Shown here: piece after piece, positions 13,674-52,366 of the stretch
Layout of the letters: each line of letters begins with the position of its first letter
How positions within the stretch are numbered: position 1 is the stretch's first letter
DNA from: Lingula anatina
Lineage: Eukaryota; Animalia; Brachiopoda
Reading direction: 5' to 3'
Length of the DNA stretch: 64,000 nt
Assembly: GCA_051362555.1 (NCBI GenBank)
Contig: CM120640.1
Location: 68,054,788-68,118,787 of the forward strand
Notes under the pieces: generated by a model
Database searches by the model: none
The model's input: the letters and a program-made list of their open reading frames with translations, nothing else
What the model was told of the DNA's origin: nothing
Program-made: the position numbers and the translations under genes

Positions 13674-16600
13674 TCACACCAGCACAGGATGGCCTTGAAC
13701 ATCTTCACAATCCTTGCCCTTGTCGTACTCCTCAATCTCCCACTGCATATTCTGCATTATAAACTTTACGATCAGCTGGTAGACTGTGTGTTTTGCTTTG
13801 ATTTGAACTGACATGGCAATGAAGAAGGAAACGAAAAATAAAACCCCACAAATCAGGGTAACTATCTCCTCTGTTGTCAAGTCAACTTTGTTGCGAGGGA
13901 ATTTGCTGATCTGGCCCTTATCTGACAGAAAACACATAACAGTAATGACTGCACAGGACAGCATGACAATGACATTGATGAGAAAGACGCTGTGGAGGAT
14001 TTTGTCTCGTCCATTTACCCTCGGGAGTCTGAAGTGGTTACACTGGAAGAAAGACAAGTTCATATTCAGATCATCTGAAAATAATAATATTGAAATAACT
14101 ATGATCAATCTATTTGATTAAATTTGACATTAACATACTCCCTGGTATTAACTGTCACAACTTTTTATCAAAACATTTAGCAAAAAATGTTTTTCAACAA
14201 TCAAGAAAAATCTAAGTGTGCAAAAAGCACCATTATCAAATATTTTTTTACTATTTTTTTCCATTACTGTGAATTCAGTACACATATATAACAAATTCTT
14301 AACAACAAGCATCATATATAAAAATGCATATCATGCCATCTTCTCAAGCATGAACTTCAAATGGTTACAAATATATTTAAGTGGGCTAAAAATAGGAAGA
14401 CTGATTTTTCTTCAAGGAATATCATGCATACTGAGATCCACCCTTGCTGATTCATTAAATTCCCCCTAAGTCCCGCAGACCTGTCAAAAGTGAAACTTAA
14501 ACCCTATTAGTAAATAAATTGTGTTTAAACTGACAGAGTTGTCCTAAAGTGAAAATAAAATTCAGTGCACAAATAAACTTTGGCACCAAATTCAAGGATA
14601 ACCTGTAACCTGTAATCTAACCCACATACAGAATTTTCTACATGCAGAACTTTTTTCTACACTGTACATGCTTCTTGTCATGTTGATAGTTCATTTGAGG
14701 TACACACAGACTGTGTATATACGCCTATAGTAGTAAACTACTCCACTCATAACTGACTGTTCTGTTAAATATAGAATACTACACTAGATACCAAACACCA
14801 ATTTAGCACTGGAGTTGTATCCTGTAGTTTGGTGAACAAAACACTCCTTAAGGAAGTTCAATAATTTGGGCACAGTCAATATTACAAGTTAAATTGACAT
14901 ACATAGACATATAACTCTAATTAAAATATATATATATGCTTAACTTGTACCCTCAGTTTACCCTTCATAATACTTACTTTGAACTTCTTGTGCCGATGAA
15001 ACTGGTAATGACACAGCTCACACTTGGGTGGCTTCCTAGTCTTGCGTGAGCAAACTTCCAACCATCTCTGAAATATATATATATATATTTTCTGCAATTA
15101 ATTTTTTCTTACAAAAATTTGTGTAAATTACATCTGAATAAGTCCCAATTGTAAATTTTCAGAAAGTACAGGTTTATTATCTATCCAAAATAAAGGTGTC
15201 TTGATCTTCAGTCAATGGGATAGTTTTTTTTTTTTTTAATTTGTAAATTTGTAATGTACCAGCCATAGCAGCAAAGTACTTTTCAGTGTTACAGTAATTG
15301 ACGCTTCACTCCTTACATTTTCACGGAGAACACAACTACTAATTTAACATTTGCGAAGGTTAACTTCTTTTAATGAAACAGCAAAATGAATGCTTGTATA
15401 TGTTATCTTGGGAGTTGTATGCCTTTGATGAGAAGAGCCAAGCAACAGAAATATATTGATAAGCTGAAACATGAACGTGTTATATATCAGTCATATATAC
15501 CAACATACTTGGTATACAGCCAAGATATGCAGTAGTCTATTGACTCAACTTAAAACAGGAGTGGATTTGAACCCATGAGGGTACACAACCCAAAATTAAG
15601 GTAAATATCAAGCCCTCAGCTGCAGAGCCACAGGGCAGCTGACTTCACATGCTAATCAATACTGGTTTGCTAGCTGCAACATGATGCTGCTTCACAATGC
15701 AAACTGTGACTGTGTGCACCTATACTATAATTATCATACTTAGACACAAAACTATCAATTGCTTTTCACCTTAAAAAAATCAATAATTGTTATTTCCCAT
15801 AGTATGGCCCATTTCCATGAAACAATCCCCACATTTTAAGACAAATTTTCCCATAATGATTTACTCTGCTAAAAACATCATAGTTAAGATGTATAGTTAT
15901 GATATTCACTATTCGCAAGTTTACCATTGGTGTATTCAGGAGGAAAATTATAATCCTATTAATTTTAATAGAAATTTTGGGATAAATGCATCTTTCCTTC
16001 AGTGTTTGACTTGTTAACTCAATATTGGCCTTGGCATTTGGCTTGAAATAACCCTGTGCATAGGGGGCTATATTTTGCCAAAGTTACATATAGATATGTA
16101 CCAGTCCATTTTCAATGTCAATAATGTACCTAACCACCCCTTACCAGAAATAAGGATAGTCCCAGAGCACATATTTCTTCTTTTTTTTTTTGGCCTTGAA
16201 TTCTTCATATAAAAACAGTCCTCCAAGACCTTTCCAAAATATATATCTAAAGCCAAGTCACAGCTGTGTGCAATGCTAAACAAACTTACACTTTCATTTC
16301 AAAAAACTTTTACTGAGTCTTACATAACGTGTTATGAATCAGAAAATGAAACTAAATAAATAAATGAATCATTGAAATGAGGTCACTTGCAATAACTCGA
16401 TCATTGTCTATTTGTCTCAAAATTTTCATTTGGCTGGAAGCAAACTTAATTGTAGCACATGGGTGACATCTACTCACCTTTAAACATGTGACATGTATAA
16501 ACTGAAGGGTTCCTGAGCACCTGCACGGTGAGATCAGTGCATCCTGGGCTGTGTCTGGCATATGGCATATCCGACAGATTGGGTTCAAAGAGTTGGCCGA

Positions 16601-16756
16601 ACTAGCCTCAGAGTAAGGTGCATCTGGCAAAGGCAAAAGGTGTTTCTTTGGTGATTCCTCCGACTGGGATGAAAAACTCTGCCCCTCCATAGGATTGATA
16701 TGTATTCCAACGAGAGGCAAGAAAGGCGTAGGTCCCTCTTCTGGTGGATCCCCCAT
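13674..16756 (-). CDS. MARCH-family membrane-associated RING-CH E3 ubiquitin ligase (3 coding exons, about 245 aa)
   Basis: Exons 16756-16478, 15067-14978 and 14042-13674 join in frame. The C4HC3 RING-CH reads CRICH...[23 protein letters not shown]...CELC and is followed by two hydrophobic helices and a WEIEEYDK tail. The acceptor at 16796 implies upstream 5' UTR exons. The paralogue cannot be assigned. Confidence 0.92.
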
Positions 16757-16860
16757 TCCTCTTTGCTGTACAATTTCTATGAACAGATCCTTTTTCCTAA
16801 AAGAAAACAATGGAACCTGTTAGCTGTCTGCCTGCACCTTGCTGTGTCTGATTAACACCT

Positions 16861-24670: not shown

Positions 24671-25022
24671 GATGTATTTTTCAGTGTTTACTCCATAAGG
24701 GTTAAACCATATTTTTGTTTTACTTTATTTTGCGAATGCAAATATAAGCTAGTTGGCTTTGTTTGGTGAACAGACAGGTTGATTTCAAGTCACCATAATT
24801 GTTCTTAAATAGTTTCTGTAGTATAGTTTCTGTGCGTAGTAGCTGTCCAACTACATTAGCCAAATTTGCCTTTTTTTTCTGAAATTTTTCAGAATCATGT
24901 AATGTTATTTTGCTTTAATAATACTGTCATATTAGGAGTCATTTTTTCTCAAAGCTATGTCCAAATCCTACACAAGTCCATATGTTTTTTTTAATTTTTT
25001 TTTTTATTTTTGCAGGTACAGG

Positions 25023-27382
25023 ATGCTTCCAATCCAGACCAAGTCCTCACATTTTGAATCAATCCTAGCAGAATTGAATAAGCAGCGCCTGTCCAAAGTC
25101 CACTGTGATGTGTCTCTGGTTAGTGATCTAGGTGTGACATTCCCAGCTCATCGCTGTGTCTTAGCAGCCAGTTGTGGATATTTCCGTGATCTACTAAACC
25201 AGCAGAGAGCAGGGTCAATCTTAGTCCTCAATGACTATAGCACAGAAGCATTGCAGCTCTTCATTGAGGTCATATACACTGGCAGGTTTCAGCTGCCCAA
25301 AAACATAGACAATGAGGAGGATGTAAAAAAGCTGAGACATTTAGCTACTCTTTTGGATTTACAGACTGCTGTTCAGCTTTGTGATGAATACCTCCGTGGA
25401 GTTCAATTTTTCAAACCAAAAAGTCGACGCAAAACTAACAAACAAAAAAGTCAACGTAAATTAAAGAAACCCTCTTCTAATCAATTGACAAATGAGTCTG
25501 CAGAGCCTGAAAAAGAAGAAAAGGAAATTAAAACTGATACAATTGCTACAAATGTACCAACTGATGATAATGATGATGATGATGGGGATGAATTACAAAC
25601 TGATGATGAGGGGGAAGAATCTCCAGTTGATGTTGGAATGATTGAAGATGATAGTGTTGAATACATACCAACTGGGTCTGCAGCAAAGCAGTGTTTTGAT
25701 GATGAAACGAACACAAAGGGTATAAGAAAATCACTACGCATTGTAAAACGAAAAGTGAAAAAATACCCTGAAGAGGAACAAATAGCGAAACCAAGAAGAA
25801 AAATTAAAAAGAGGAAAGTGCAAGATGATAGTGATTCTGATCTAGATGACAGTATTGTTGTAGAGAGTGGTGCAGATTTGGCTCCTTCTCAGCCTGTTGA
25901 TCCTGTGACAGAGGCTCTGAATGTGGCTTTTGGTATAACATCTGACTTAGGAAAAGAAACCAACCCAACACCAGATCCAGTGGAGGTTGAACAAACTTTT
26001 GACAAGATTTTGAAAATGTTGGCTGTTCATAGACCGCAACAAAAAATAGAGAAAAGAGGAAGAAAGCCCAAAATTAAGGTAGAGGAAAAGGAAAGCAAGG
26101 TAGCAATGGATGGGGAACTTTTCAGAGAAAATGATCAGTCAGTTCTTGAAAAGTTTGCTGAAATTACAACAAAGGTTGCAGAGCAGGAAGGACAGACACT
26201 TTTGATAAATGGGACCGTTTCTACTGAAAGTTCAGATTTTGATACCAAGGTCAGTAAATCCTTCAAGTCAATCCAAGAGCAAATTAAAAAGAGAAAACTA
26301 ACTGAAAATAGTGAAGTGTCAGTCAACCTTGGCTTAAAGAAGAAGCCAGCCAGTGCACAAGAAGAAGAAGAATGGCGAAATTGTTTATACTGCAAACAGT
26401 TTAGGGGTAAAAGAAAGGGAAGATTTGAGTTCCATGCAAGATATTGCAACAGCCAGTACCGATGTCAACTTTGCTACAAACCTTTTCTCAATGAGTTTGA
26501 TATGAAGAGGCATCATTGTGCAAAAGAAAAGGTATATTATGCTTTTTGTACTTTATTATGTATGTTGGTGCTGTCCATTGAGTTACTGAGAAAAAGGTGC
26601 ACAACAAAATTATGATACCAATAGTAAAAACATTCTTTGTCAATGGACTGATTGATATGCTATTTAAAAAGTGTTTGGACGGTTCCATCTATCGTACATG
26701 TTATTTGTTTTGCTTTATTTTTTAGAAAAGTGTCATTTGTGAACAGTGTGGGAAGACCTTGACCAACTGCTATGCTTTAGCTCTCCATATGCAAGTACAT
26801 TCAGGAGTGAAGAAACATGCTTGTCAGCACTGTGGAAAGCTTTTCCTACGAGCATGCCAGTTGAAGGCTCATGTAGTCCATGTTCACACAACAGAACGTC
26901 CCCATAAGTGTGTCCACTGTGGCAAGGCATTTGGATTGAAATATGAATTAAACAGACACTTACAGAACCACAGCACAGCATACAACTTCATTTGCAACCA
27001 GTGTGGTGCTGGGTTCCATGAGAATTTTAAACTTAACCAACATGTCAAGATGGCTCACAAGCCTATGAATGCTGGCATACCACAGGTACTACATCAGACT
27101 AGCAGTGCCTCAAGCCAGATAACATTTTTGGCCCCAAGTATGACATCCCAGGCTGAAAACTCTACTTTCACGTATCCTACTAATAGCTTGCCTGTCAACA
27201 ATCTTCCAAACTCCGTTCCAGGAGAGTCTCTGATTTATGCCATGGTCCCTGCATCTTCACTGGCACTGACTGATGACCTACAGGAGAATGATGTCACTTT
27301 CCAAGTAATTCAAGCTATCCAGGGGTCATACAGCAATGACCAACCAAACCAGGACCAGGAAACTAGACTGACCACTCTGTAA
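25023..27382 (+). CDS. BTB/POZ and C2H2 zinc-finger transcription factor (ZBTB-like, about 721 aa)
   Basis: Coding exons 25023-26531 and 26726-27382 (phase-0 GT-AG intron). BTB signature LNKQR...HCDVSLV...FPAHRCVLAASCGYF...YTG, an acidic/basic linker with a possible KRGRKPK AT-hook, and four canonical C2H2 fingers in the last exon plus two degenerate ones before the intron. A non-coding first exon probably ends at 24110 (GTGAGT). Confidence 0.93.
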
Positions 27383-28473: not shown

Positions 28474-31400
28474 TCAGCTTGCTTGATCATCATCCTCAAA
28501 ATCCTGTGATAGTAAAAAGTTGGCTGCCAAGTCTTCATTTTTCTCACAGGCAAAATAGGCTTGAATGCACATACCCTCTGGGAAACCCAATGCTTTGAGC
28601 TGAGGGAAGAGAAAGAGAAAAAAGAAGCTATACATCTTCTTTGAAGCAAATCTGTATGCTCATCCATATTATATAATGTTTCTATGGCAATACAAGAACC
28701 TATATGCATTATACTTCAGTATTTTGAAAATCACCTTGACGCAAAGCAGACATATCTCACCCTTTCAATAGCTTCTTTTTCCTGTGGAGTAACTTGCACC
28801 ACACCTGGAGCAGGTCCTTGCCCTTGCCCCCCGGCTCCCTGAACCCCTGGCATCACCGGACTCCCACCTGCCTCCACTGGCTCATTCAACATCTGAACAA
28901 ACTGTGCTTGATTTTGGCTGATTACCTACAAAGACCAAGAGGTGTAAATAAGAAATCATCCAATTAAAAAAAAACATTTAAAGCAACAGATTTTTTTTAT
29001 CTTTAGATTAATTCTTAATTTCTCCAAAAAATTGTTTCTCAATAACTATTTTCAGGGTGAACTTGTGCAAATGTTACCTGGAGCAGCTGGGGGTTTGTCC
29101 TACCAATCTGTTCAAGCAACACATGCAGAAGCTGAGGGTTTTGCTGAACAAGGTTTCTCATTTGTGTAAACTGAGGTTGATTTCTCAAAAAGGAAAGGTC
29201 TTCAGCACCTAAAATAATTACATATTTAGTTAAAACTTAAAACATACCACAGCTATTTCACAAAAGCACCCTTAAGCCCGAAAAAGTCAAAACAAAGTGC
29301 GTTAACATTTCTCATCAAAGAACATGGATCGAGTGGAGAGCACAAAAACCAGTGATGCAACAAAATGTCTATTCCTCTTCATTTACAAAAACTAATACTC
29401 ACTTCCAGTGCCAGTTGGTGCTCCTGTGCCAGTTGTTGGTGCGCCAGTAGTTGGTGTACCAGTGGTTGGTGTACCAGTGGCTGCTGGAACTCCACCAGCA
29501 GGTGTCCCTGTCTCAGAGGCAGGTGTGCCAGCTGCTGGAGTACCAACAGGCTGTGCAGGTGCTTGTACTGGCTGTTGTGCTGGTTGAGCTTGAGTTTCTT
29601 GGCTATGTATTTGAGGAATACCCTGAGCAGGACACATGATATAAACATAATTAATAACCTGTTATTTCTTCATTGATTTTTTCTAATTTTATCATAATTT
29701 TTCAGAAAAAAAATGCTTTGGTACAATGGGGCAGTCCTTGACAAGAATGTCAATGTACTACTTTTTAAAAATTAAAAGGTTCCAATCCAAAAGCATATCT
29801 GATAAATAGTAAAATCCTTATCTACTTTCCATAAAAGCTTTGGGTTAAAAATACCTAAAGTGTAAATATATTACTTAACACAAAACTGTTACAGGAGGTT
29901 CTGCTAGTACTTACAGTTAAAAGATATTCCACTGCTCTATCTGGATTATTAAAGCTTGCCCTTAAGGCTCTTACTACTTGATCTCTCTCAAAGCCCATAT
30001 TCATAATTTCCAGTATCATCTGTTCATAAGCCTCCCCTGTTACTAGTGTACTCTCAGCAGAGACAATTGATGAAGAGGATGGCACAGAAGAAGCAGGTGT
30101 AAAGGAACTCTCTGAGCTAGCTGATGCTGAAACATCACTGAAATTACAAAAAGTAGAACCCTTTTTGTGTATGTGTGTGTGGTTAATACACAACCGTTAT
30201 ATAGGTAAACCAGCACTTTTCAAATCTCAGTGCACACATACACAACTATTACAATTACTTAAATCATTCTTAAACATCAACAGATCTGTTTCCAGTAATT
30301 TGAATAAATACAAACACTTGATAACCAATATGTTATTTGTCAGTTGGATCAGACAGTTTAGGCTGATATTGTTATTGAAAAACATAACTACCTCGAGGGC
30401 GGTGTTTCTTCTTGTATTGGTTTTACTTCTTCCTTCTTTTCTTCTTTTTTCTCTGGTGTGGCGGCTGCTGGTGTACTGGCAGGTGCTGGGGCTGGGGCAG
30501 CACTGGCTGTCTGGGCACTCTCTGCTGGTTTGGCAGGCTGTGCTTTAGGCTGAAATAGCAATTTTTAAGTATGTGTTCATCTCTTAAAGTAACAGCAACT
30601 ATTAAACTGTATTGCTTGTTGTGTAAAATTGTGCTTTCAATAGAATGAAAAGATTTGCAGCCCGTACAGGAACACTCTTACAAAATATATAAATGTGGGG
30701 GAACCAATGTAAGACCTAGATGAGAAGAGCTACAGAAATATATACCCAGACAAGGGTTGGGCCAGATATTAGCTGTTCACTGGGAAAAAGGAAAGAAACA
30801 TCCTTGACCTATACTTCTGCAGCTGAGGAAACTTTACATCAAATTTTAAATTCAGGAGTAAATGCCTGTATTCTTTAAAAATAGAGATGGACTGGGACTC
30901 ACAGAATGTTACAAAGTTCAATTCAGACCTAATAAGGAAACTGAATAATCACAAAGATGTTGAATAGGTATTTTCACTGGAAGGTTTGTGAGAAAACATA
31001 AGAAGGCGGAAAAATACAATTAGACATAAATGACAGCTTCTGTGAAAAACTGAGAAAGTGTAGGACCTAAATGTTTATTGATGTGAAAAGTCTTTAAAGA
31101 CAGTTAATCAATTTTTCACAATGAACAAAGTAGAGAAACAAAATATCAAGCCCAGGAAATGTTAACAAGCCAATATCTTCTGGCATTTGGTATATCCCAT
31201 AGATCTTTAAACAAATTATAATAAAGAAGATCACTTCACTTACTTTGGTAACCATTACCACCACAAAATTCTTTTCTTCAATTTTATAATCCCCAACGGG
31301 CTTTTCATCATCTAGAATTTTACCTGAAAAAAAAAAGAAAAGAAATTAAACTTAATAATCATAGTGCAGTCCCAAGGTTTCTCATTTTGGAGCAATATAA

Positions 31401-42631: not shown

Positions 42632-45600
42632 CTAATCTCTCAGTCCCAGCTCTGAGACTTTCCTCTGAGCCCACTGCATTACAACCATACTGCTGCCATT
42701 AGCAATGAAGCTGCGAATGGTGCCTGGACCCAGACCTCTGTACAGGGCAAAAAACCCACCTCTTTCCTTGATTACCAACTGCATCCTCTTCAGAACTGGC
42801 ATTTTCCTAAGAAAGGACAAATTTACAATCTTTTTTAAAAATGTTTTTACTTTAAAACTGAAATATATATATAATATTTGTACTTCACATGTCAGTTTCA
42901 CACAATAATATTTAAAACATTTTGAAACTGTAATACAGAGATCAAATTTTCACACATGTACTACTGTGATTTTGAAAGAGAAGTGAAACAACTTACTCTC
43001 CATATCCACCTTGAACTTGAGACTTCATAAACTCTAAAGGCCAGACCAACCACCATGCTAAAGTGGCTGCAATGCCTGATGTCAAAAATGGTCCCAACAG
43101 AGGGCGCTGGAAGTGCTCAGCATGGTTACGCCTTATGTAATCCACCATTATAAAATATGATGTCATCAGACCTAGTGTTCTGCTTAAACTTATGCCAAAA
43201 CCCTGAAGAATAATAGTTACATTCTGCATATACATTTAAATAATTAGCATGCTGAGACATATCTTGACATTACATTCAGAATGGCACAGTAGTTACAAAC
43301 AATCCCGCACTTTTAAACTTGACAGTATAATAATCTTTCATGAATAAATATTTTAAATGTCTGAGAGCTTTACTTGTAATTCAAATATTGGTAATTCTTT
43401 TACATCTATAAAAGCTCAATAAATATTACTTTAAAAAGGGAAAATTTTAAATTCATACAAACATTGTAAACTTCTCTTATTGTCCATGTTGACTGGATTT
43501 GTCTACGAATCTGAAATCAAAATAGTCAAATTAGGCATAAAATGTTTCTTATCTGATGGATAGGACTTTTAAGATGAGTAATGAGACAGAAAGTACTACA
43601 TTTAACAAAATATACAGAAACTTTTTCTTAATAATTTCAATATTTTCAAACCTTGGCATACTCTAGTGGTGTTTCAATAACAGCCCTTGCAGTAGATGCA
43701 ACCAATCCACCAATGATAACTCGGCTGTTGAATGGAAAAAACATATTATTTGCAAATAAATATTCCATTCCTTAAAAACACTTTCTCCTCTTAGTGTTTT
43801 TACTGTTATAAATATAATATCTTTACAAATATTTTCAGATGTCTACATGTACCTTTAAAATGTTTTTCAATGATTTTCAACTCAATATCAATCTCAGTGC
43901 TTTGTTCAACTTTTCATTTCTATCCACTTATATTGGAAACCAATTCCCTTGACATGTCTATATTTGGTGCTCTAATTTAAATTTTCTGTGAAAACTTACA
44001 TTTGTAGACCTGCAGTTGCTGGTATTTCATATTTTCCAAAATTACTGTCCATCTTCGTATATCTAAAATATCACAATACTAAAATTCTATCTGTTACAGT
44101 CAGTGAGATGTAGTCAAGGAAATACTGTGTAAATTAAATTATCAAAACAGCTTTTGACTAAACAGTAAATACTGATGACAAACAGCAGTAAGCAGCAGTA
44201 CTACTAGACTACTAGTAAAAGAACTAGATAATGTCATATTCAGCTAAACATCATTGACAAACAACTGGATAATTACATAAGAGAGCACCTGCTGATGTAC
44301 TTACACTGCCTCAAACACTGCAAACTGTGTAGATCTGTATATCCCTGAGCCACAGAGGGGTGGAATACAGCCTCTGTAAAAACAGTGAAGACACAGGCCA
44401 TTAGATTAGTGTTGAAATAAGTACAAATATATTCCACATAAATCCAGATTACTGTAAAAACTGAATATTTAACAAAGTAGCAAAGGTGTGAAATGGACAG
44501 ACATATAAAGGAAAAAAAAACTGACAGCAGCACCCTAAAATGATGAACGTCCAATTTTATTGATATAAGAGTATAAAATGGGTTTTTAAAATCTTTATTG
44601 ATGCAACAGGACATAGTGGCAAAATCACAACTGTCAGTAGAGAGCATACATTTAAACTGTTGGGTGTCTTCCTTACATAATGACCTTAAATAGTTCAAAC
44701 TTGTTGAACATGTTTAAAAAACACATACACATGACAGCATTATCTATGCAAACTTAAACATGGCAATCTGTGTTCATGCAACTTGTTGCACAGTGTCAAA
44801 GTTTACAACAGAAATTTTTAACAACATTTCAGAATTCCATTTTCTTTAACTACTTTTCAAATATACCTGTGCTTACTTGATTTTATCATATGTACGGTCG
44901 TATAAAAGAACAAATTTTAGTGTATAACTTCAACTTTTTGGGTGCTATGATTCCCCCAAATCACACCTAAAAAGGCCTATTTTGCAAAAATAAAAAATAA
45001 AAATAATAAAATAATAATAATAAGAACAATCCAACAAAACTAGTTTTCAAACTGTTTTTCGGACATGACAACCATTCCTGTAAGTTTGAGAATAATCAGA
45101 AAGCAACGCAGTTTTCTTTTTATTGTGTTTATAAGTAAAAATTCCAGGAAAGTGCCTTATGAAGGTGGGGCAACATCTGACACAGGCAATGTAGTTATAC
45201 AAGATGCTTTCTAAATCAAAATAAAATTAATTTTTAAAAAAGAAACAGTCAAGAATCAATTAAACAGTTTGATCTAAGTTTCTGTGCAGCTTACATGGAA
45301 GACTTAAATTAAAAATAAAGGTTTGAAATACATAACCATTTGCATGCAATACTGTACCTATATAACCCTATTACTCCTTGAGACTTGATTGTTTTTGCTA
45401 ATGTTTTCAGCATTCCACCTTTTTCAAAGCCTACTTGTGCCTGCATCTTGGTCTTGATGGTGTCAAAGGGATGCCCCACTGCAACACTGGTGGTGCCATA
45501 CAGTACCCCCACTGAAATTGATGCACAGACAAACTTGTATATTTTAATGTAAATAAAAATTTCACCTTACAAACAATTGTAAAAAATATTGACCAAGAAA

Positions 45601-46473: not shown

Positions 46474-47586
46474 ATATCCAAACTTACACCCCCAGGAAAG
46501 GGAGAGATAAACACTTTAAAGGCTGACTTTTGGTATAGTTTTATACATGTGAGTTAGTTTATTGAACTTAAAAAAGTTTCATATGAATACTTAGTAAAAT
46601 TTGCAATCAACTTGTTTGATTACCCACTGCAGTGGGGAGATTGGAAAGGGAATAACCAGTCAACATCAAGGGAGCGTTCGATGGGATAACGGCACACCGC
46701 ACTACAATAGGCCGGGCAGAGAACAGCAGCTAATGTCGTTCGGCAAGCAGAGTATGTTTTCTTTTAATTTATACATTCTATCCAGTTTAGTTGACTCATT
46801 TGGAGTCTGTTTTATCTTCACTGATACTCTGAAACTAATAGTGATAGGCTGCACTTGCACTGTTTTATGTAAAAAAATACCATTTAACCCATTTAACCCA
46901 CGCCATCTTAAAAATTGTTTTGATAAAAAATGTCGGATTTCAATAATCAGTATGAGCTAAATTATCGCTTGTCGCTAATATGTTGAAAGGACCGTGGGTG
47001 GGTGTTTTATTGTCAGTAAACTCCATATTTCTTATATGGATCATCTTCAGTGCAAACTATACTTAAATGCTTTTGAAATATGGTATAACATGATGTAAAC
47101 TAAAAATCTTGTCATTCACATTTAAAGCCAAATGAAGATGTGAAGTGTGGCAAAAACCGTATAGATCTACGTTTTATGGGCGTTAATTCAAAGTTTGCGA
47201 CCTGTAAGTTTGATCGTAAAAAATTACATAAGGTCCAGGTACCAGTAATTGAGAATCAGAAACCTAACAGAAAAGCCATACGTTCTTTATTGCAGATTTA
47301 AGGTATACTGTACTGGATATTTAGTAATTTTTACTCACAAATCATTACTTGTCTCTTGACCTGCACACTAATCAAATTGTATCATGTTTCCTGAACATTT
47401 TAGAAAAAAAAAGACACCAGGTACATTTATTTGAGGGTTATTTATTATCATTTTAAATGTGTTAATTGGGAAAGATATGACATTTTGCAAGAAACTGACA
47501 TGACATTGTCCTATCAGAATATATTCAAATGTATAAAATATACATGTACCTTTCAGTTCTCTTTTTTATTTATATTTACATAGGAT

Positions 47587-50500
47587 ATGGATGAAAGAAA
47601 GAATATGTACAAAAAAATTCTGAAAAAGAATCAGGTATATTTGGTGGAAGAATTGAAAAGTGAACATCTCATAAATCATTTACTTGAAGAGGGAATTTTA
47701 ACATCAAGAGACAATGAAGAGTTCAAGGCTTCACAAACAAGACGAGAACGTTCAGAATGGTTGATTAACCATCTGACTACACATGCTCCACCACGTTTTT
47801 ATGATGTTCTCAGAAGAGCACTGATAAAAGAGGGACAAGAACATGTAGCAGATAAACTTGATGCAACTCTGACAGGTATACACATACATGTACTCCTTGC
47901 TGATCATATAATAGTGGAATAAGTATTTTCTATGGGTCCTCCTTCTGGGACCTTTGATTATATTAATCTACAGAATCTATTAAAATGCCTTGTCTTAGTC
48001 ATGAATGCATTAAAACATTACAATGTTTTTGATTGATTTCAACAAAAATGGCTTTGATTCACCATTATATCCACTGTCATAAGTAATGATAAGGACTGTG
48101 ATGATAATAACAATGAAAGAAATGATCAAATTACTATGGCCTGCTGTAATTAATTTTATCTGAAATGTACTCAAAAACTTGTATGTGCTTGTTTAATTTT
48201 GGACAAATTTCTTATTTTAAAAAATTTTTCCATTTAGAGTTGATGGAAGAAGATAAAACAGCTAGACCATCTAAGGGACATAAAAGTAGGTTTTCAATCT
48301 TTTCCTTAGTGATGAATTTATCAAGAGTTTTTAATAGAGGCTGGTTACCCTGGCTGGATTAATTTTTTTTTTTTTACATATCATGTGATGCTTGCTATCT
48401 TAAGCAGCTTAGATGTCTGTCATGCCTACTGAAGCTGCTAGGGAGTAATTAATTATCGTTTTTTGTATCTGAAAATTATATTTTGTGTCTGAAACATATC
48501 TTTAACTATAACAGGAAGGAGGTCACAGGGCAGTGGGTCATGTCCATCGCCAAAGTACAAGTCATATTACAGAAACCTTAATCGCAGCTCTCCAACAAGC
48601 AGTGTCTCATCATCTAGTCCCAGGGGAAGTCCCACATTAAAACAGCTTCAGGGTGTAGTATGTATTCTTCTTAACCATCTGATATATTAAACTTTTACCA
48701 CAGTGACTGATATTTTTACGTTTTGCATAATTTGTTTTTCAAAGAAAAATAAGTGCATGATTTAGTTCTCAAAATGTGTATGTTTATATTTTGCGTCATC
48801 TTATAAGTCCGTTATTATGGTATGACCTTAAAGCAAAAGCATGATATTAGGATTACAAACAACTGTGTAGATTTTCTATCCTTAAAGGTATCCTATAATT
48901 TGGCATTTTCTTGCCAGATTGAATTTTTCTTAGAAAAAAGCAATTTGCTCTTACTCATCTATCATTGATCTTAAATTTGTGAACTGGATTGAGATGTAGG
49001 ATAAGAAAATGTTTGGGAATTTGTATAACATTGAGGATATATAGTGGTTTTTATATTAGGTCTTCAGGCCCATGGAAATTTATTTATGTTACATATAATT
49101 TGGGACATCATGATTACAGGAGAGCGTTCTTTGTAAATACCATGACAAAGGTTGTTGTCAGTCAGTTCCACCAGAAGAGTTAGAAACTCTCTACGCCCAC
49201 AGTTGTGCATACAGGCCACAGCAATGCCCTCACTGCGGAAATGAAGTGCCACTCATTGCTTTTGGACAGGTATTTTTGATTCTGTTTTTGAACTGAAATG
49301 TATGTAATAAAATGTTGTGTACTATTTTTATGTACAGCATAACCACCATTATTCTGACTGCATGCATTGTTCAATTTAGTACCCTTACAATTATATACAA
49401 ATTGTTTGTAGCAGTTAGTAGATTAATTCTTAACAATTTTTGTAATGATTCAATCTTTTCTTACTTAAAGCACATTATCTAACAGATGTTTACATCATTC
49501 TCAAATGAGGATAAATTGCAGTAATCTGAAAATAACATTTTTCTTTGTACAATTTCCCTCTTTAAGCATGTTACCACCTGTAAAGTGAGGAAAACTGAAT
49601 GTCCAGTGTGTTCAGAAACAGTGGCACAAGGACAGGTATACTGTTGTCATGATCACTTGTAAATATGTAATTAATTAATTTTTTTGTATACTTGAATATA
49701 TATGCATATATTTTAAAATAGGAGATATCGGAGTTGTTTTTCTTCATATATATACTAACTTTGATATAAATACACTTTTCAAAAAGAGGAGCATCCTGAT
49801 GTTCTGAGTTGCCAGTTTTTCAGCTGTCCATTACTTAGTTGTTTTCTGGTCACAATTTATTTTATTAAGGAGGCAATAATGGAGTATGTAATATAAGTTT
49901 TTAAGATCAGTATGTCAGATCATCAGATTTTTTTGATGATAAAGCCAGCAAAACATATTTAATTTAAATCTCTAAAATTTACTTTCAAATTGAATTGTGT
50001 AATAATAGTGAAAAATTTGTTTAAGAAATTATGGTCTCCCCATCAAAAGTGAACTTAAGTAAATTTGCTTTGTCAAAGTCAGTAGTTTAATTTCATTTTA
50101 TAACATTAATAGTGATTTATGTGTATTTAGAAAGAATTTTCATTGTTTAAACAATAGCTGGAATTGTTTTGTTTTGAATGTATTTATTTCTGAAATACTA
50201 TTACAGTTGGATGAACACATTGAGAAACATTATGATACTCAAGACAGCAAGTGTCACTTTGTCTTGGTTGGATGTACTTATGCAGTAGGTATAATTTGAT
50301 ATTCAAACTTAAAAGCCAAGATTTAGTAGTAGTGTTTAAATATATATATTGCTCTCACCTTTGTCACACAAGCAGAAGCTTGAGCTGTTTACATTTAGCT
50401 TACTGTCATTTCTTTTACTGCCAGTTTCACCATTTTTCTTCAAACTCACAGGGATTACTCATTGTTCTAATAGAAACTGGGCATGAACCGATAATTCTTT

Positions 50501-52366
50501 TATATTTTAGAATTAGTTTTGTTTACACAGTACCTTTAATTGATTTTGTAAAGGCCGCAATTGTTGTTAAAATTTTGATTTCTTTAACGTGGCAAGTTCC
50601 ATTTAATGATTCACACTAAAGTGATCTTCTACATTTAAATATGCAATTTTTCAAGGGAAAATCAGCTGATCTTGGGGCTCATAGGAAAGAAGCTGTTTGC
50701 TCCCATTTGGAATTGCACAGTAAATGTTGCGAGAAAAAACACAAGGAAACCAAGGTAAAGACATATCTATGTATATCATATATATATCAGATAAATCATA
50801 TTACATAAAATCACTGCCTTCCGGAATTATTGTTGCAGGCATAATTTTAGCACAATTTAAATTGGGAATCAGACATTTTTGCTTGTTGATTTTCTACCTG
50901 AAGTGCCTTCTGATTATCTGTCATAAGTCCACCTTGTCATTTGTTCCCTTTTAATCATGTAATCCAAAATCTTGTCTGTTGTTGGTGATACAACTTATTA
51001 TTTCCATTGTAGACATCCCTATTTTCAATAAGAACTGACCTTGACTCTGTCAAAAGTACTGTTGACTCTCTACAGAAACAGAATTCTGTCACAAAGGGAA
51101 TACTTGATGAAATGAGAAACACAAGTTATTCAGTTAATAACAACACAAGTCCAGCAGTTTCATCTGGTTAGTATAACTGTTAATAAATTTTGACTCCCTT
51201 TTAAAGGAAATTAGAATTGTGTTGGAGAAAAAAACATGAAACTTATGGTTCCTTTAGATACAGTTTTGACTTCATGTATGTATATTCTCTTGTTATTTTT
51301 AGTTATTTTAACTGGCAAGTTAGTGATTTCCAAATATGGGTAAGATATTAGAATGTTATAAAGTCATACTTACCTGTTCTTTTTTGAATAGCATTTCATC
51401 CATTCCCTACCCCTGAAAGTCAGCATGAAATAGAAACCACCGGGACTCCAGCAGCTTCAAAGAAACCTGTGGCTGGAAAGAAAACTCAACTTTTTAAACC
51501 AGCCCTGAAGAATGTGCTGACTCTGTCCAATATGACTGGTAAATATTATATGTTTCTATGAATTGGTTTGTGTGAGATGCAACATGAAAGAGATACAACA
51601 TGTAGGCGGAAAAAGTCGAGTCATAATTTTTTAAACATGAAATTTGTAATTGTAGAAATATGAACTCAACAGTGATATTAGAAGAGAAATGTAAGACGTT
51701 ATATGGCAAACACATAGTGCATGCAATTTTTTTCATCATTTTGAAAGCGATTTAGAAAATTTTAGATACTTACATACTTAATACTCTTTATCAGTGCCCA
51801 TTATATTTCTATTTATTGCAGGCAATGTGGTAGTTGGAAAAAACATTACATTTGGTGAAAAGGACAAAGTAATGCAAGATGAGATATTGATTGATAACAC
51901 TGGCGAGGAGGAATGTTTTCAATGGGATGTGTACCCAGTGACAAATTATCTCGGTGCAGTTCGTAAAAATCTTGTGGAGTCAATTATTAGTCCAGTTTTC
52001 TATACCAATAACAAATCTGGGTACAAAATGCAGCTGCAGATGTACTTGAATGGGGATGGTGAGGAAAGCAGGGGGTTTGTGTCTCTCTTCTTTGTTCTGC
52101 TGCCAGTAATTAATGATGGTAAGCTTGACTGGCCTTTCAAGCAGAATGTGACCATTAAGATTTTGGACCAGAGTGACCAGAAACGCCATATTGTATACGA
52201 ACTGCAATATGACCCTGATACCGAGATTGAAAACCCAATCCCCACTGAGGATTCATTTGTAGCTTATGGTGTGCCCAAGTTTGTTAGATATGAGTTTCTT
52301 GAAAAGAAACAATATTTATATATTTCTCATGATAGAATAAGAGTAGAAGTTCAAGTATCTGACTAG
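47587..52366 (+). CDS. CARD + TRAF-type zinc fingers + coiled coil + RHIM-like motif + MATH/TRAF-C domain protein (10 coding exons, about 573 aa, no RING)
   Basis: Exons 47587-47875, 48238-48285, 48515-48657, 49120-49269, 49567-49635, 50207-50284, 50656-50754, 51013-51166, 51392-51538 and 51822-52366 join in one frame (1722 nt, all GT-AG). CARD: ILKKNQVYLVEEL...HLLEEGILT...TRRERSEWLINHL...RALIKEGQEHVADKL. Fingers: CKYHDKGC...CAYRPQQCPHC...HVTTC...CPVC...EH...CHFVLVGC...H...SHL. TRAF-C: SPVFYT...GYKMQLQMYLNGDG...VSLFF...LDWPFKQNVTIKILDQ...YGVPKF. Confidence 0.88.

What the first reader, a model, noticed from the sequence alone, without database searches (positions are those of the whole stretch)
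51392..51860. RHIM-like amyloid motif hidden across an exon junction of the CARD-TRAF protein, on a frame-preserving skippable exon
Seen: joining 51538 to 51822 gives ...KNVLTLSNMTG-NVVVGKNITFG in an otherwise disordered insert between the coiled coil and MATH, where canonical TRAFs have no insert. The motif is invisible in the ORF track. Established: RHIMs (RIPK3 VNIYNCSGVQVGDNNYL, RIPK1 YTIYNSTGIQIGAYNYM) form functional amyloids, and variants occur in invertebrates. The pattern hydrophobic-x-hydrophobic-x-N-x-x-G...V-x-V-G-x-N is kept, with a Q-to-V change in the core and one extra residue. Exon 51392-51538 is 147 nt and phase 1-1, so skipping it deletes half the motif in frame. Inference: one protein could bridge TRAF-binding receptors, RHIM amyloid signalling and CARD/caspase filaments, with a splice switch.
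Basis: partly seen in the sequence, partly recalled or inferred. Interest (0 to 1): 0.8.

Follow-up and report, generated by a model that had tools for sequence, protein, structure and literature searches.

The report
Lamp-shell TRAF with partial amyloid motif
A lamp-shell (brachiopod) immune-adaptor gene splices two exons into a short stretch that partly resembles the amyloid-forming RHIM signalling motif, but the stretch lacks the motif's key glutamine, sits where the adaptor's helical stalk normally lies and shows no exon skipping in the RNA read here, so it is more likely an eroded stalk than a splice-controlled amyloid switch.

Summary
The gene is real and expressed: ten coding exons give a 573-aa CARD-zinc finger-coiled coil-linker-MATH protein, 94% identical to Lingula anatina XP_013389961. 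The join 51538^51822 is read in 7 of 8 RNA runs (43 reads), so the motif exists as described. It beats chance for one protein (5 of 1000 shuffles; 0 of 173 TRAF-like proteins). It keeps the four aliphatic residues that nucleate RIPK amyloids. But it fails the RHIM definition: no Pfam hit, Val in place of a Gln kept in all 37 listed natural vertebrate variants, and no distal Asn. Roughly 100 such matches are expected per proteome by chance. It is not an insert: it occupies the place of the TRAF-N stalk and weakly resembles it. No skip junction was listed, and 6 of 8 internal exons preserve frame anyway. The MATH receptor groove is non-canonical. Verdict: a Lingula CARD-TRAF adaptor with an eroded stalk (0.55); a working cryptic-RHIM amyloid stays open (0.3); the splice switch is unsupported. 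The scan holds no earlier RHIM note for this genome.

The parts
47584..47875 (+). Coding exon 1 (ATG at 47587): CARD
   Evidence: Pfam CARD E 1.8e-12; join to exon 2 in RNA; nearest natural solved CARDs are Bcl10 and Apaf-1, E about 2e-4 to 6e-4
48238..48285 (+). Coding exon 2, phase 1-1, 48 nt, linker
48515..48657 (+). Coding exon 3, Ser/Pro-rich disordered linker
49120..49269 (+). Coding exon 4, TRAF-type zinc finger
   Evidence: zf-TRAF E 6e-4, below the curated cut-off; matches P0001; the exact 48657^49120 join was not among the displayed RNA rows
49567..49635 (+). Coding exon 5, zinc finger
   Evidence: downstream join in RNA
50207..50284 (+). Coding exon 6, zinc finger
50656..50754 (+). 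Coding exon 7, end of zinc fingers and start of long helix
51013..51166 (+). Coding exon 8, predicted coiled-coil helix (helix 274-336 of P0001) running into the linker; fast-evolving
51392..51538 (+). Coding exon 9, 147 nt, phase 1-1: Pro/Thr/Lys-rich disordered linker, then the first half of the motif; included in every junction listed
51517..51538 (+). First half of the RHIM-like stretch (Leu386, Leu388, Asn390, first base of Gly393)
51822..51856 (+). Second half of the RHIM-like stretch (Gly393 to Gly404; cores VVVG 395-398 and ITFG 401-404), at the place of the TRAF-N stalk; position 51822 reads A (Asp393) in 31 of 31 junction reads of runs X7-X9
51822..52366 (+). Coding exon 10: stalk remnant, acidic spacer and MATH/TRAF-C domain (from about 51914) with a non-canonical receptor groove; stop codon ends at 52366
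   Evidence: Pfam MATH_2 E 8e-26; TRAF5/2/3 structures E 3e-22 to 1e-18

Best explanation
This expressed Lingula gene encodes a RING-less TRAF-type protein with an N-terminal CARD, and the RHIM-like stretch is likely the eroded remnant of the TRAF-N helical stalk, included in every junction read listed and likely not a working amyloid switch. Shown: the exon structure, inclusion of exon 9, the domain order, the position of the stretch directly before MATH, its loss of helix-forming residues, and the altered receptor groove. Inferred: the remaining upstream helix (about residues 274-336) would oligomerise the protein. The MATH domain, now on a flexible tether of about 90 residues, would bind a non-Px(Q/E)E ligand. 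Clustering would bring the CARDs together to recruit a CARD partner such as an initiator caspase or a Bcl10-like adaptor, in place of the ubiquitin-ligase output of ordinary TRAFs. The apolar, beta-prone patch left by the stalk would resemble a RHIM partly by inheritance of hydrophobic positions and partly by chance.
For: Zinc-finger-to-MATH spacing is ordinary (178 vs median 186; 37 of 59 as long or longer), while the 80 residues before MATH are unusually poor in helix formers (1 of 59 as low) and rich in Pro (1 of 59 as high). The alignment puts the motif on the TRAF-N heptads. Its second half matches best at one common offset in 47 of 101 homologues, best in TRAF2-like proteins, with a mean score reached by 18 of 500 shuffles. 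Pfam finds no RHIM on the whole protein or on the 40-mer at E up to 10; there is no PDB hit and no Atlas feature hit. All 37 natural variant tetrads of vertebrate RIPK3 and RIPK1 listed by Fay et al. keep Gln2 and Gly4. A per-protein chance of 0.003-0.005 times about 34,000 genes (listing) gives roughly 90-170 equal matches per proteome. The only other CARD-zinc-finger protein found, Lingula P0033, has no such pattern. No skip joint was listed against 43 and 29 reads on the two inclusion junctions.
Against: Homology to TRAF-N is weak: a profile of the 45 residues before MATH does not recognise the linker (526 of 2000 shuffles score as well), and the match needs a 3-residue offset. The first half of the motif lies on another exon and is not explained by the stalk match. 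The stretch is the most apolar, least charged, proline-free window of the linker. Residues 375-424 carry only 1 listed difference in 150 nt in the divergent runs X8/X9, against 15 in 154 nt of exon 8 (p = 0.0004). That suggests constraint, although the rate does not differ from MATH (p = 0.2 to 1.0). The partner and output of CARD and MATH are untested.
Confidence: 0.55

Rival explanations
1. The stretch is a working cryptic RHIM (VxxG type). It has taken over from the lost stalk as the oligomerisation module: receptor-clustered MATH domains would nucleate a cross-beta stack that gathers the CARDs, alone or with the Lingula RIPK1-like protein. It would be constitutive, not splice-switched.
For: The aliphatic tetrad needed for nucleation (RIPK3 V450, I452, V458, V460) maps to Leu386, Leu388, Val395, Val397. 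In RIPK3, polar or aliphatic insertions just before strand 2 increase nucleation, most changes at the first Gly increase it, and mouse RIPK3 has Glu there; this tolerates both the extra Asn394 and the Gly393Asp allele. Insect and crustacean cRHIM cores are VxxG or IxxG. The N-terminal flank is disordered, as for RHIMs. Lingula has a RHIM-bearing RIPK1-like protein, XP_013410819.1. The pattern has p = 0.003-0.005 per protein, and variation is low in runs X8/X9.
Against: Gln is invariant in 37 of 37 listed vertebrate variants, and Gln and Asn ladders stabilise the RIPK1-RIPK3 fibril. The distal Asn is absent. VxxG/IxxG occurs 9 times in this protein and about 3 times per 573 residues of background. 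With Asp393 the class score falls to 14.9, inside the background range, and the analogous RIPK3 G457D impairs cell death. There is no profile hit. The paralogue lacks the stretch, and no orthologue was found to test conservation.
Confidence: 0.3
2. The stretch is a short binding segment that is not amyloid: it folds as an extra strand on its own MATH domain or on a partner, or still forms a short helical trimer neck.
For: It directly precedes MATH and varies little in runs X8/X9. With an alignment, AlphaFold2 draws 380-412 as a helix with pLDDT about 70 falling to 47, although the alignment rows there are TRAF-N coiled coils and bias the model.
Against: The model shows no strand there packed on MATH. 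The 40 residues before MATH hold 4 Gly and 12 beta-branched residues, against medians of 1 and 6 in 101 homologues, which argues against a stable helix.
Confidence: 0.1
3. One reading: exon 9 skipping toggles a RHIM on and off in a three-way receptor, amyloid and CARD bridge.
For: Exon 9 is phase 1-1 and the skipped frame is open. Alternative exons do control a cRHIM in a Rhodnius PGRP. Depth was low, so a minor or infection-induced skip form could be missed.
Against: No skip joint was listed in the complete table for four runs or among the displayed rows for four more. Six of 8 internal exons are frame-preserving. The canonical receptor groove is lost.
Confidence: 0.05

Closest known systems
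TRAF2/3/5-type adaptors (RING, zinc fingers, TRAF-N coiled coil, TRAF-C/MATH)
   Same: TRAF zinc fingers, a long helix and a C-terminal MATH; best solved matches are TRAF5, TRAF2 and TRAF3; RefSeq names the 94%-identical protein 'TNF receptor-associated factor 3'.
   Different: CARD instead of RING; the MATH-proximal stalk is replaced by a disordered linker and an apolar patch; groove residues matching TRAF2 R393, S453-S455, F447, F456 and C469 are replaced; only about 20-26% identity to nearly all TRAFs aligned.
RHIM of RIPK1, RIPK3, ZBP1, TRIF (core (V/I)-Q-(V/I/L/C)-G)
   Same: Aliphatic tetrad, proximal Asn, Gly before and after the central strand, final apolar residue, disordered N-terminal flank.
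   Different: Val for the core Gln, Ile for the distal Asn, one extra loop residue, Gly393Asp in one set of animals; no profile hit; no TRAF with a RHIM found in the papers searched.
Cryptic RHIM (cRHIM, VxxG/IxxG) of insect PGRP-LC/LE/LA, Imd, Pirk and crustacean SRB2
   Same: Gln-less four-residue core ending in Gly; two such cores in tandem (395-398 and 401-404); immune context.
   Different: The core alone is uninformative (9 copies in this protein); no cRHIM profile was available; PGRPs with RHIM and Imd were reported as not found in molluscs and brachiopods (passage).
Lingula anatina LOC106163228 (XP_013396205.1, P0033)
   Same: CARD plus TRAF zinc fingers, 29% identity; the only other CARD-bearing hit among 151 other proteins fetched.
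   Different: Annotated without MATH and without the motif; its model may be incomplete, which could not be checked because no genome is held.

Membership tests
RHIM | Core tetrad (V/I)-Q-(V/I/L/C)-G | tested here: not met
   Core is VVVG; no such tetrad anywhere in the protein; Gln kept in 37 of 37 listed natural variants
RHIM | Match to the Pfam RHIM profile | tested here: not met
   No hit for P0001 or for the 40-residue stretch at E up to 10; HMMER filters drop most weak hits
RHIM | Aliphatic tetrad of the first fibril interface (RIPK3 450/452/458/460) | tested here: met
   Leu386, Leu388, Val395, Val397, with one inserted loop residue
RHIM | C-terminal Asn-x-apolar extension | tested here: not met
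   Ile401 stands at the Asn position; Phe403 fits the apolar one
RHIM | Embedded in unstructured sequence | tested here: met
   pLDDT under 50 for 341-378 and most of 399-420 (prediction only)
RHIM | Conserved above its flanks in orthologues | tested here: inconclusive
   No orthologue found outside Lingula. Within Lingula reads: 1 of 150 nt vs 15 of 154 in exon 8, 3 listed in the poorly covered first 91 nt of exon 9, and 12 of 451 in MATH
RHIM | Forms homotypic or heterotypic cross-beta amyloid | not testable with these tools
   Needs fibril or nucleation assays
cRHIM | VxxG or IxxG core | tested here: met
   VVVG and ITFG, but 9 such tetramers occur in the protein
cRHIM | Needed for signalling with a partner bearing a matching motif | not testable with these tools
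   No genome or proteome is held; the Lingula RIPK1 RHIM sequence is only in a figure that is not held
TRAF | C-terminal TRAF-C/MATH domain | tested here: met
TRAF | TRAF-N coiled coil adjoining TRAF-C | tested here: not met
   Helix ends about 90 residues upstream; the adjoining segment is Gly- and beta-branched-rich
TRAF | TRAF-type zinc fingers | tested here: met
   zf-TRAF E 1.3e-5, 26.2 bits against a cut-off of 27; confident model
TRAF | N-terminal RING ligase domain (absent in TRAF1, recalled) | tested here: not met
   CARD in its place; no RING family listed
TRAF1/2/3/5 receptor-binding type | Serine triad, Arg and hydrophobic pocket for Px(Q/E)E motifs | tested here: not met
   P0001 Gln466 (Arg in 95 of 104), Thr527-Glu528-Ile529 (Ser in 93, 53, 97 of 104), Leu521 and Glu530 (Phe in 98 and 99 of 104); Tyr468 kept
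Regulated cassette exon | Reads joining 51166 to 51822 | tested here: not met
   None listed at a 3-read threshold (complete table, 8 rows hidden); low depth

The most novel reading that the evidence does not exclude
A brachiopod TRAF has traded both ends of the usual design: a CARD replaces the RING ligase, and the helical trimer stalk has turned into a glutamine-less RHIM-type amyloid core assembled across an exon junction. That would be the first TRAF that oligomerises as a functional amyloid and couples MATH-bound receptors and the Lingula RIPK1 RHIM to CARD filaments, and a caught case of a signalling amyloid arising from a coiled coil.
Probability: 0.25. Interest if true: 0.8.

Novelty: new variant of a known kind. 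Interest (0 to 1): 0.42.

Why it matters
The solid part is a lineage-restricted TRAF rewired from ubiquitin-ligase output to a likely CARD output, with a changed receptor groove and fast-evolving CARD and coiled-coil exons. It is one more example of immune domain shuffling in lophotrochozoans, and I did not find it described in the library searched. If the patch did form a RHIM-type amyloid, it would show that the core Gln is dispensable outside arthropods, extend amyloid signalling to the TRAF family, and give a testable route for how such motifs arise. One peptide assay would settle it. As it stands the RHIM reading is a lead, and the splice switch is unsupported.

Tried and rejected
Orthologue searches found no CARD-TRAF outside Lingula. 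The MATH query against longer proteins gave 1 hit among 226 candidates. Whole P0001 gave 3 hits among 7683 candidates. The linker-plus-MATH query against shorter proteins gave 0 among 176. The 50%-identity library gave 2731 hits, of which only the best 150 were seen, with one other CARD protein among them. The Atlas showed ordinary TRAF clusters only, all under 0.9. No genome is held, so no proteome-wide partner search was possible and the P0033 locus could not be read. The run search listed no RNA holder by index, which is no evidence; the raw runs were laid directly. Single-sequence AlphaFold2 was unusable (mean pLDDT 38.5). The complex prediction of the motif with MATH gave no answer (score 0.01, alignment not used) and is not counted either way. 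The profile test for TRAF-N homology was negative. Literature: no paper held any of six phrases for CARD-TRAF or TRAF-RHIM fusions, and broader searches showed none in titles or abstract starts. Gerdol et al. 2018 on the Lingula immune system (PMID 29278680) was seen only as a reference and may mention this architecture. The per-substitution score for RIPK3 Q459V is in a figure or a closed bioRxiv supplement and was not seen. Rejected: 'insert'; phase symmetry as a sign of regulation; VxxG as evidence by itself.

Full report
Gene and organism. Ten coding exons between 47587 and 52366, all with AG/GT ends, give one open frame of 573 residues. Pfam finds a CARD in exon 1, weak TRAF zinc-finger matches and a MATH domain in exon 10. 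The only close database protein is P0001, Lingula anatina XP_013389961.1, 574 aa and 94% identical. It has the same exon 9-10 join and no difference in exons 8 and 9. Residue numbers below follow the window model unless marked P0001, which is one higher.

Is the junction real? The 51538^51822 join has 43 reads in 7 of 8 runs, and the 51166^51392 join has 29 reads in 6 of 8. No 51166^51822 skip joint is listed. The table is complete for four runs but shows a joint only from 3 reads at 2 starts, and hid 8 rows, so a minor isoform cannot be excluded. Phase symmetry is no hint: 6 of 8 internal exons keep the frame when skipped. All 31 junction reads of runs X7-X9 carry A at 51822, which makes Gly393 an Asp.

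Is the motif more than chance? I scored ten RHIM positions named in papers, allowing one loop indel: the aliphatic tetrad and flanking glycines, the core and the distal Asn-x-apolar. The stretch scores 18.9 of 31.6, with 8 of 10 positions matched. Five of 1000 whole-protein shuffles, 9 of 5000 linker shuffles, 0 of 173 other fetched TRAF-like proteins and 1 of 6 reading frames of the window reach that score. A stricter regular pattern gives 51 of 20000 shuffles and 0 in 107,349 background residues. The patterns were written with the motif in view, so these figures are optimistic. They mean about 1 protein in 200 to 400, or roughly 90 to 170 equal matches among about 34,000 genes (gene count from the listing of PMC4595640). 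So the stretch is unusual for one protein but expected somewhere in a genome scan.

Is it a RHIM? By definition, no. The core is (V/I)-Q-(V/I/L/C)-G (PMC9444067, passages; PMC13506858, passages). All 31 RIPK3 and 6 RIPK1 natural variant tetrads in supplementary file 8 of PMC12119088 keep Gln and Gly. Here Val396 replaces Gln, and Ile401 stands where the two RIPK motifs quoted in the finding share an Asn. Pfam finds no RHIM in P0001 or in the isolated 40-mer, the solved-structure search finds nothing, and the Atlas gives no feature hit.

Could it work like one? Possibly. Deep mutagenesis (bioRxiv 10.64898/2026.02.19.706818; abstract, Results part 2 of 4 and passages) finds nucleation to rest on four aliphatic residues, which map to Leu386, Leu388, Val395 and Val397. 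It finds that insertions before strand 2 and most changes of the first Gly raise nucleation. It also reports that RIPK3 G457D lowers cell death and that too much nucleation impairs function. Arthropod cryptic RHIMs have VxxG or IxxG cores (PMC9387487 and PMC13506858, passages), but such tetramers occur 9 times in this protein. Lingula has a RIPK1-like protein with a RHIM (PMC12119088, passages and supplementary file 4). RHIMs occur in many Branchiostoma immune proteins (PMC4262963, parts 1-2 of 4 and passages; figures not held). The fungal PP comparison stresses Gln and Asn ladders (PMC7885112, passages). A nemertean study states that RHIM-bearing PGRPs and Imd were not found in molluscs or brachiopods (PMC9835746, passages).

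Conservation. No orthologue outside Lingula was found. The one paralogue, P0033, shares the CARD and zinc fingers but has neither MATH nor the pattern. Among the differences displayed for runs X8/X9 (40 rows shown, 25 hidden as less supported; 4 intronic rows and 1 UTR row left out, the junction base added from the joint table), residues 375-424 have 1 in 150 nt. Exon 8 has 15 in 154 (p = 0.0004) and MATH has 12 in 451, 5 of them scored as fixed (p = 0.2 and 1.0). The stretch is therefore as quiet as MATH and quieter than exon 8. But exon 8 looks accelerated, divergence is shallow, and the single change hits the motif's Gly, so this is inconclusive.

What the stretch is anatomically. It is not an insert. 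The last zinc finger lies 178 residues before MATH, against a median of 186 in the 59 homologues where both landmarks were found. What differs is the content: the helix ends near residue 336, residues 341-378 are disordered (P0001 numbering), and the 40 residues before MATH have 4 Gly and 12 beta-branched residues against medians of 1 and 6 in 101 homologues. In ordinary TRAFs this place holds the TRAF-N stalk of the trimer (PMC6125299, passages). The alignment lays the motif on those heptads. Its second half matches at one offset in 47 of 101 homologues, best in TRAF2-like proteins, with 18 of 500 shuffles reaching the mean score. A profile of the region, however, does not recognise the linker (526 of 2000 shuffles score as well). 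With this alignment AlphaFold2 draws 380-412 as a low-confidence helix and not as a strand on MATH; the alignment biases it that way.

The MATH groove. TRAF2 binds Px(Q/E)E motifs with S453-S455, R393, Y395 and a pocket that includes F447, F456 and C469. By the alignments the Lingula protein has Thr-Glu-Ile for the serine triad, Gln for the Arg, and Leu, Glu and Val for the pocket residues; only the Tyr is kept. It would not be expected to bind ordinary TRAF2/3/5 motifs.

Mechanism. Most likely (0.55) this is a lineage-specific adaptor. An atypical ligand binds MATH, the upstream helix oligomerises the protein, and clustered CARDs recruit a CARD partner; the nearest natural solved CARDs are Bcl10 and Apaf-1, both weak matches. 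The RHIM-like patch would be the eroded stalk. All functional steps are inferred. The main rival (0.3) is that the patch became a Gln-less amyloid core that replaces the stalk. A non-amyloid binding or neck role gets 0.1, and the splice-switch model 0.05.

Novelty. No paper in the library held six phrases for CARD-TRAF or TRAF-RHIM fusions, and five broader searches showed none in titles or abstract starts. The main paper on Lingula immunity (Gerdol et al. 2018) was not read and may describe the architecture. The scan has no earlier RHIM note for this genome and none near this place. Its notes on other shuffled death-domain proteins in the same genome are unchecked context, and the eight RHIM-like findings listed from elsewhere are bacterial or phage. 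I rate the protein a new variant of a known kind, with interest 0.42; the amyloid reading would deserve 0.8 if a peptide assay bore it out.

Noticed in passing
window 47587-47875: The CARD exon differs at 20 of 96 residues from the RefSeq protein P0001, while exons 6-10 differ at 2 of 340. This points to a hypervariable CARD, or to exchange with a paralogue.
   Followed up: partly
window 50656-51166: In runs X8/X9 the coiled-coil exons 7-8 show 12 amino-acid-changing against 4 silent codon differences among the rows displayed, whereas exon 10 shows 6 against 7. Possible positive selection on the coiled coil; no formal test was run.
   Followed up: partly
window 51082-51128: Seven reads of run X3 lack 45 nt in exon 8, in frame (residues about 316-331), with non-splice ends AT..TT: likely a deletion allele.
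   Followed up: partly
window 51822: All 31 junction reads of runs X7, X8 and X9 carry A at the first base of exon 10 (Gly393Asp); the 12 reads from the other runs match the window.
   Followed up: yes
window 48399-48461 and 50875-50917: Short intronic stretches attract many reads that continue into other sequence, some with strand-switching joints: likely interspersed repeats with inverted ends.
   Followed up: no
P0033 (XP_013396205.1): Second Lingula CARD plus TRAF-zinc-finger protein, annotated without MATH; either a truncated model or a natural MATH-less form.
   Followed up: partly
window 16355-16819 (-), 24936-27379 (+), 29858-30196 (-), 42635-45566 (-): Neighbours look like housekeeping genes by eye: a RING-CH ligase, a BTB-zinc-finger protein, a RAD23-like protein and a mitochondrial carrier (names recalled from motifs, not scanned). 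No second TRAF copy lies in the window.
   Followed up: no
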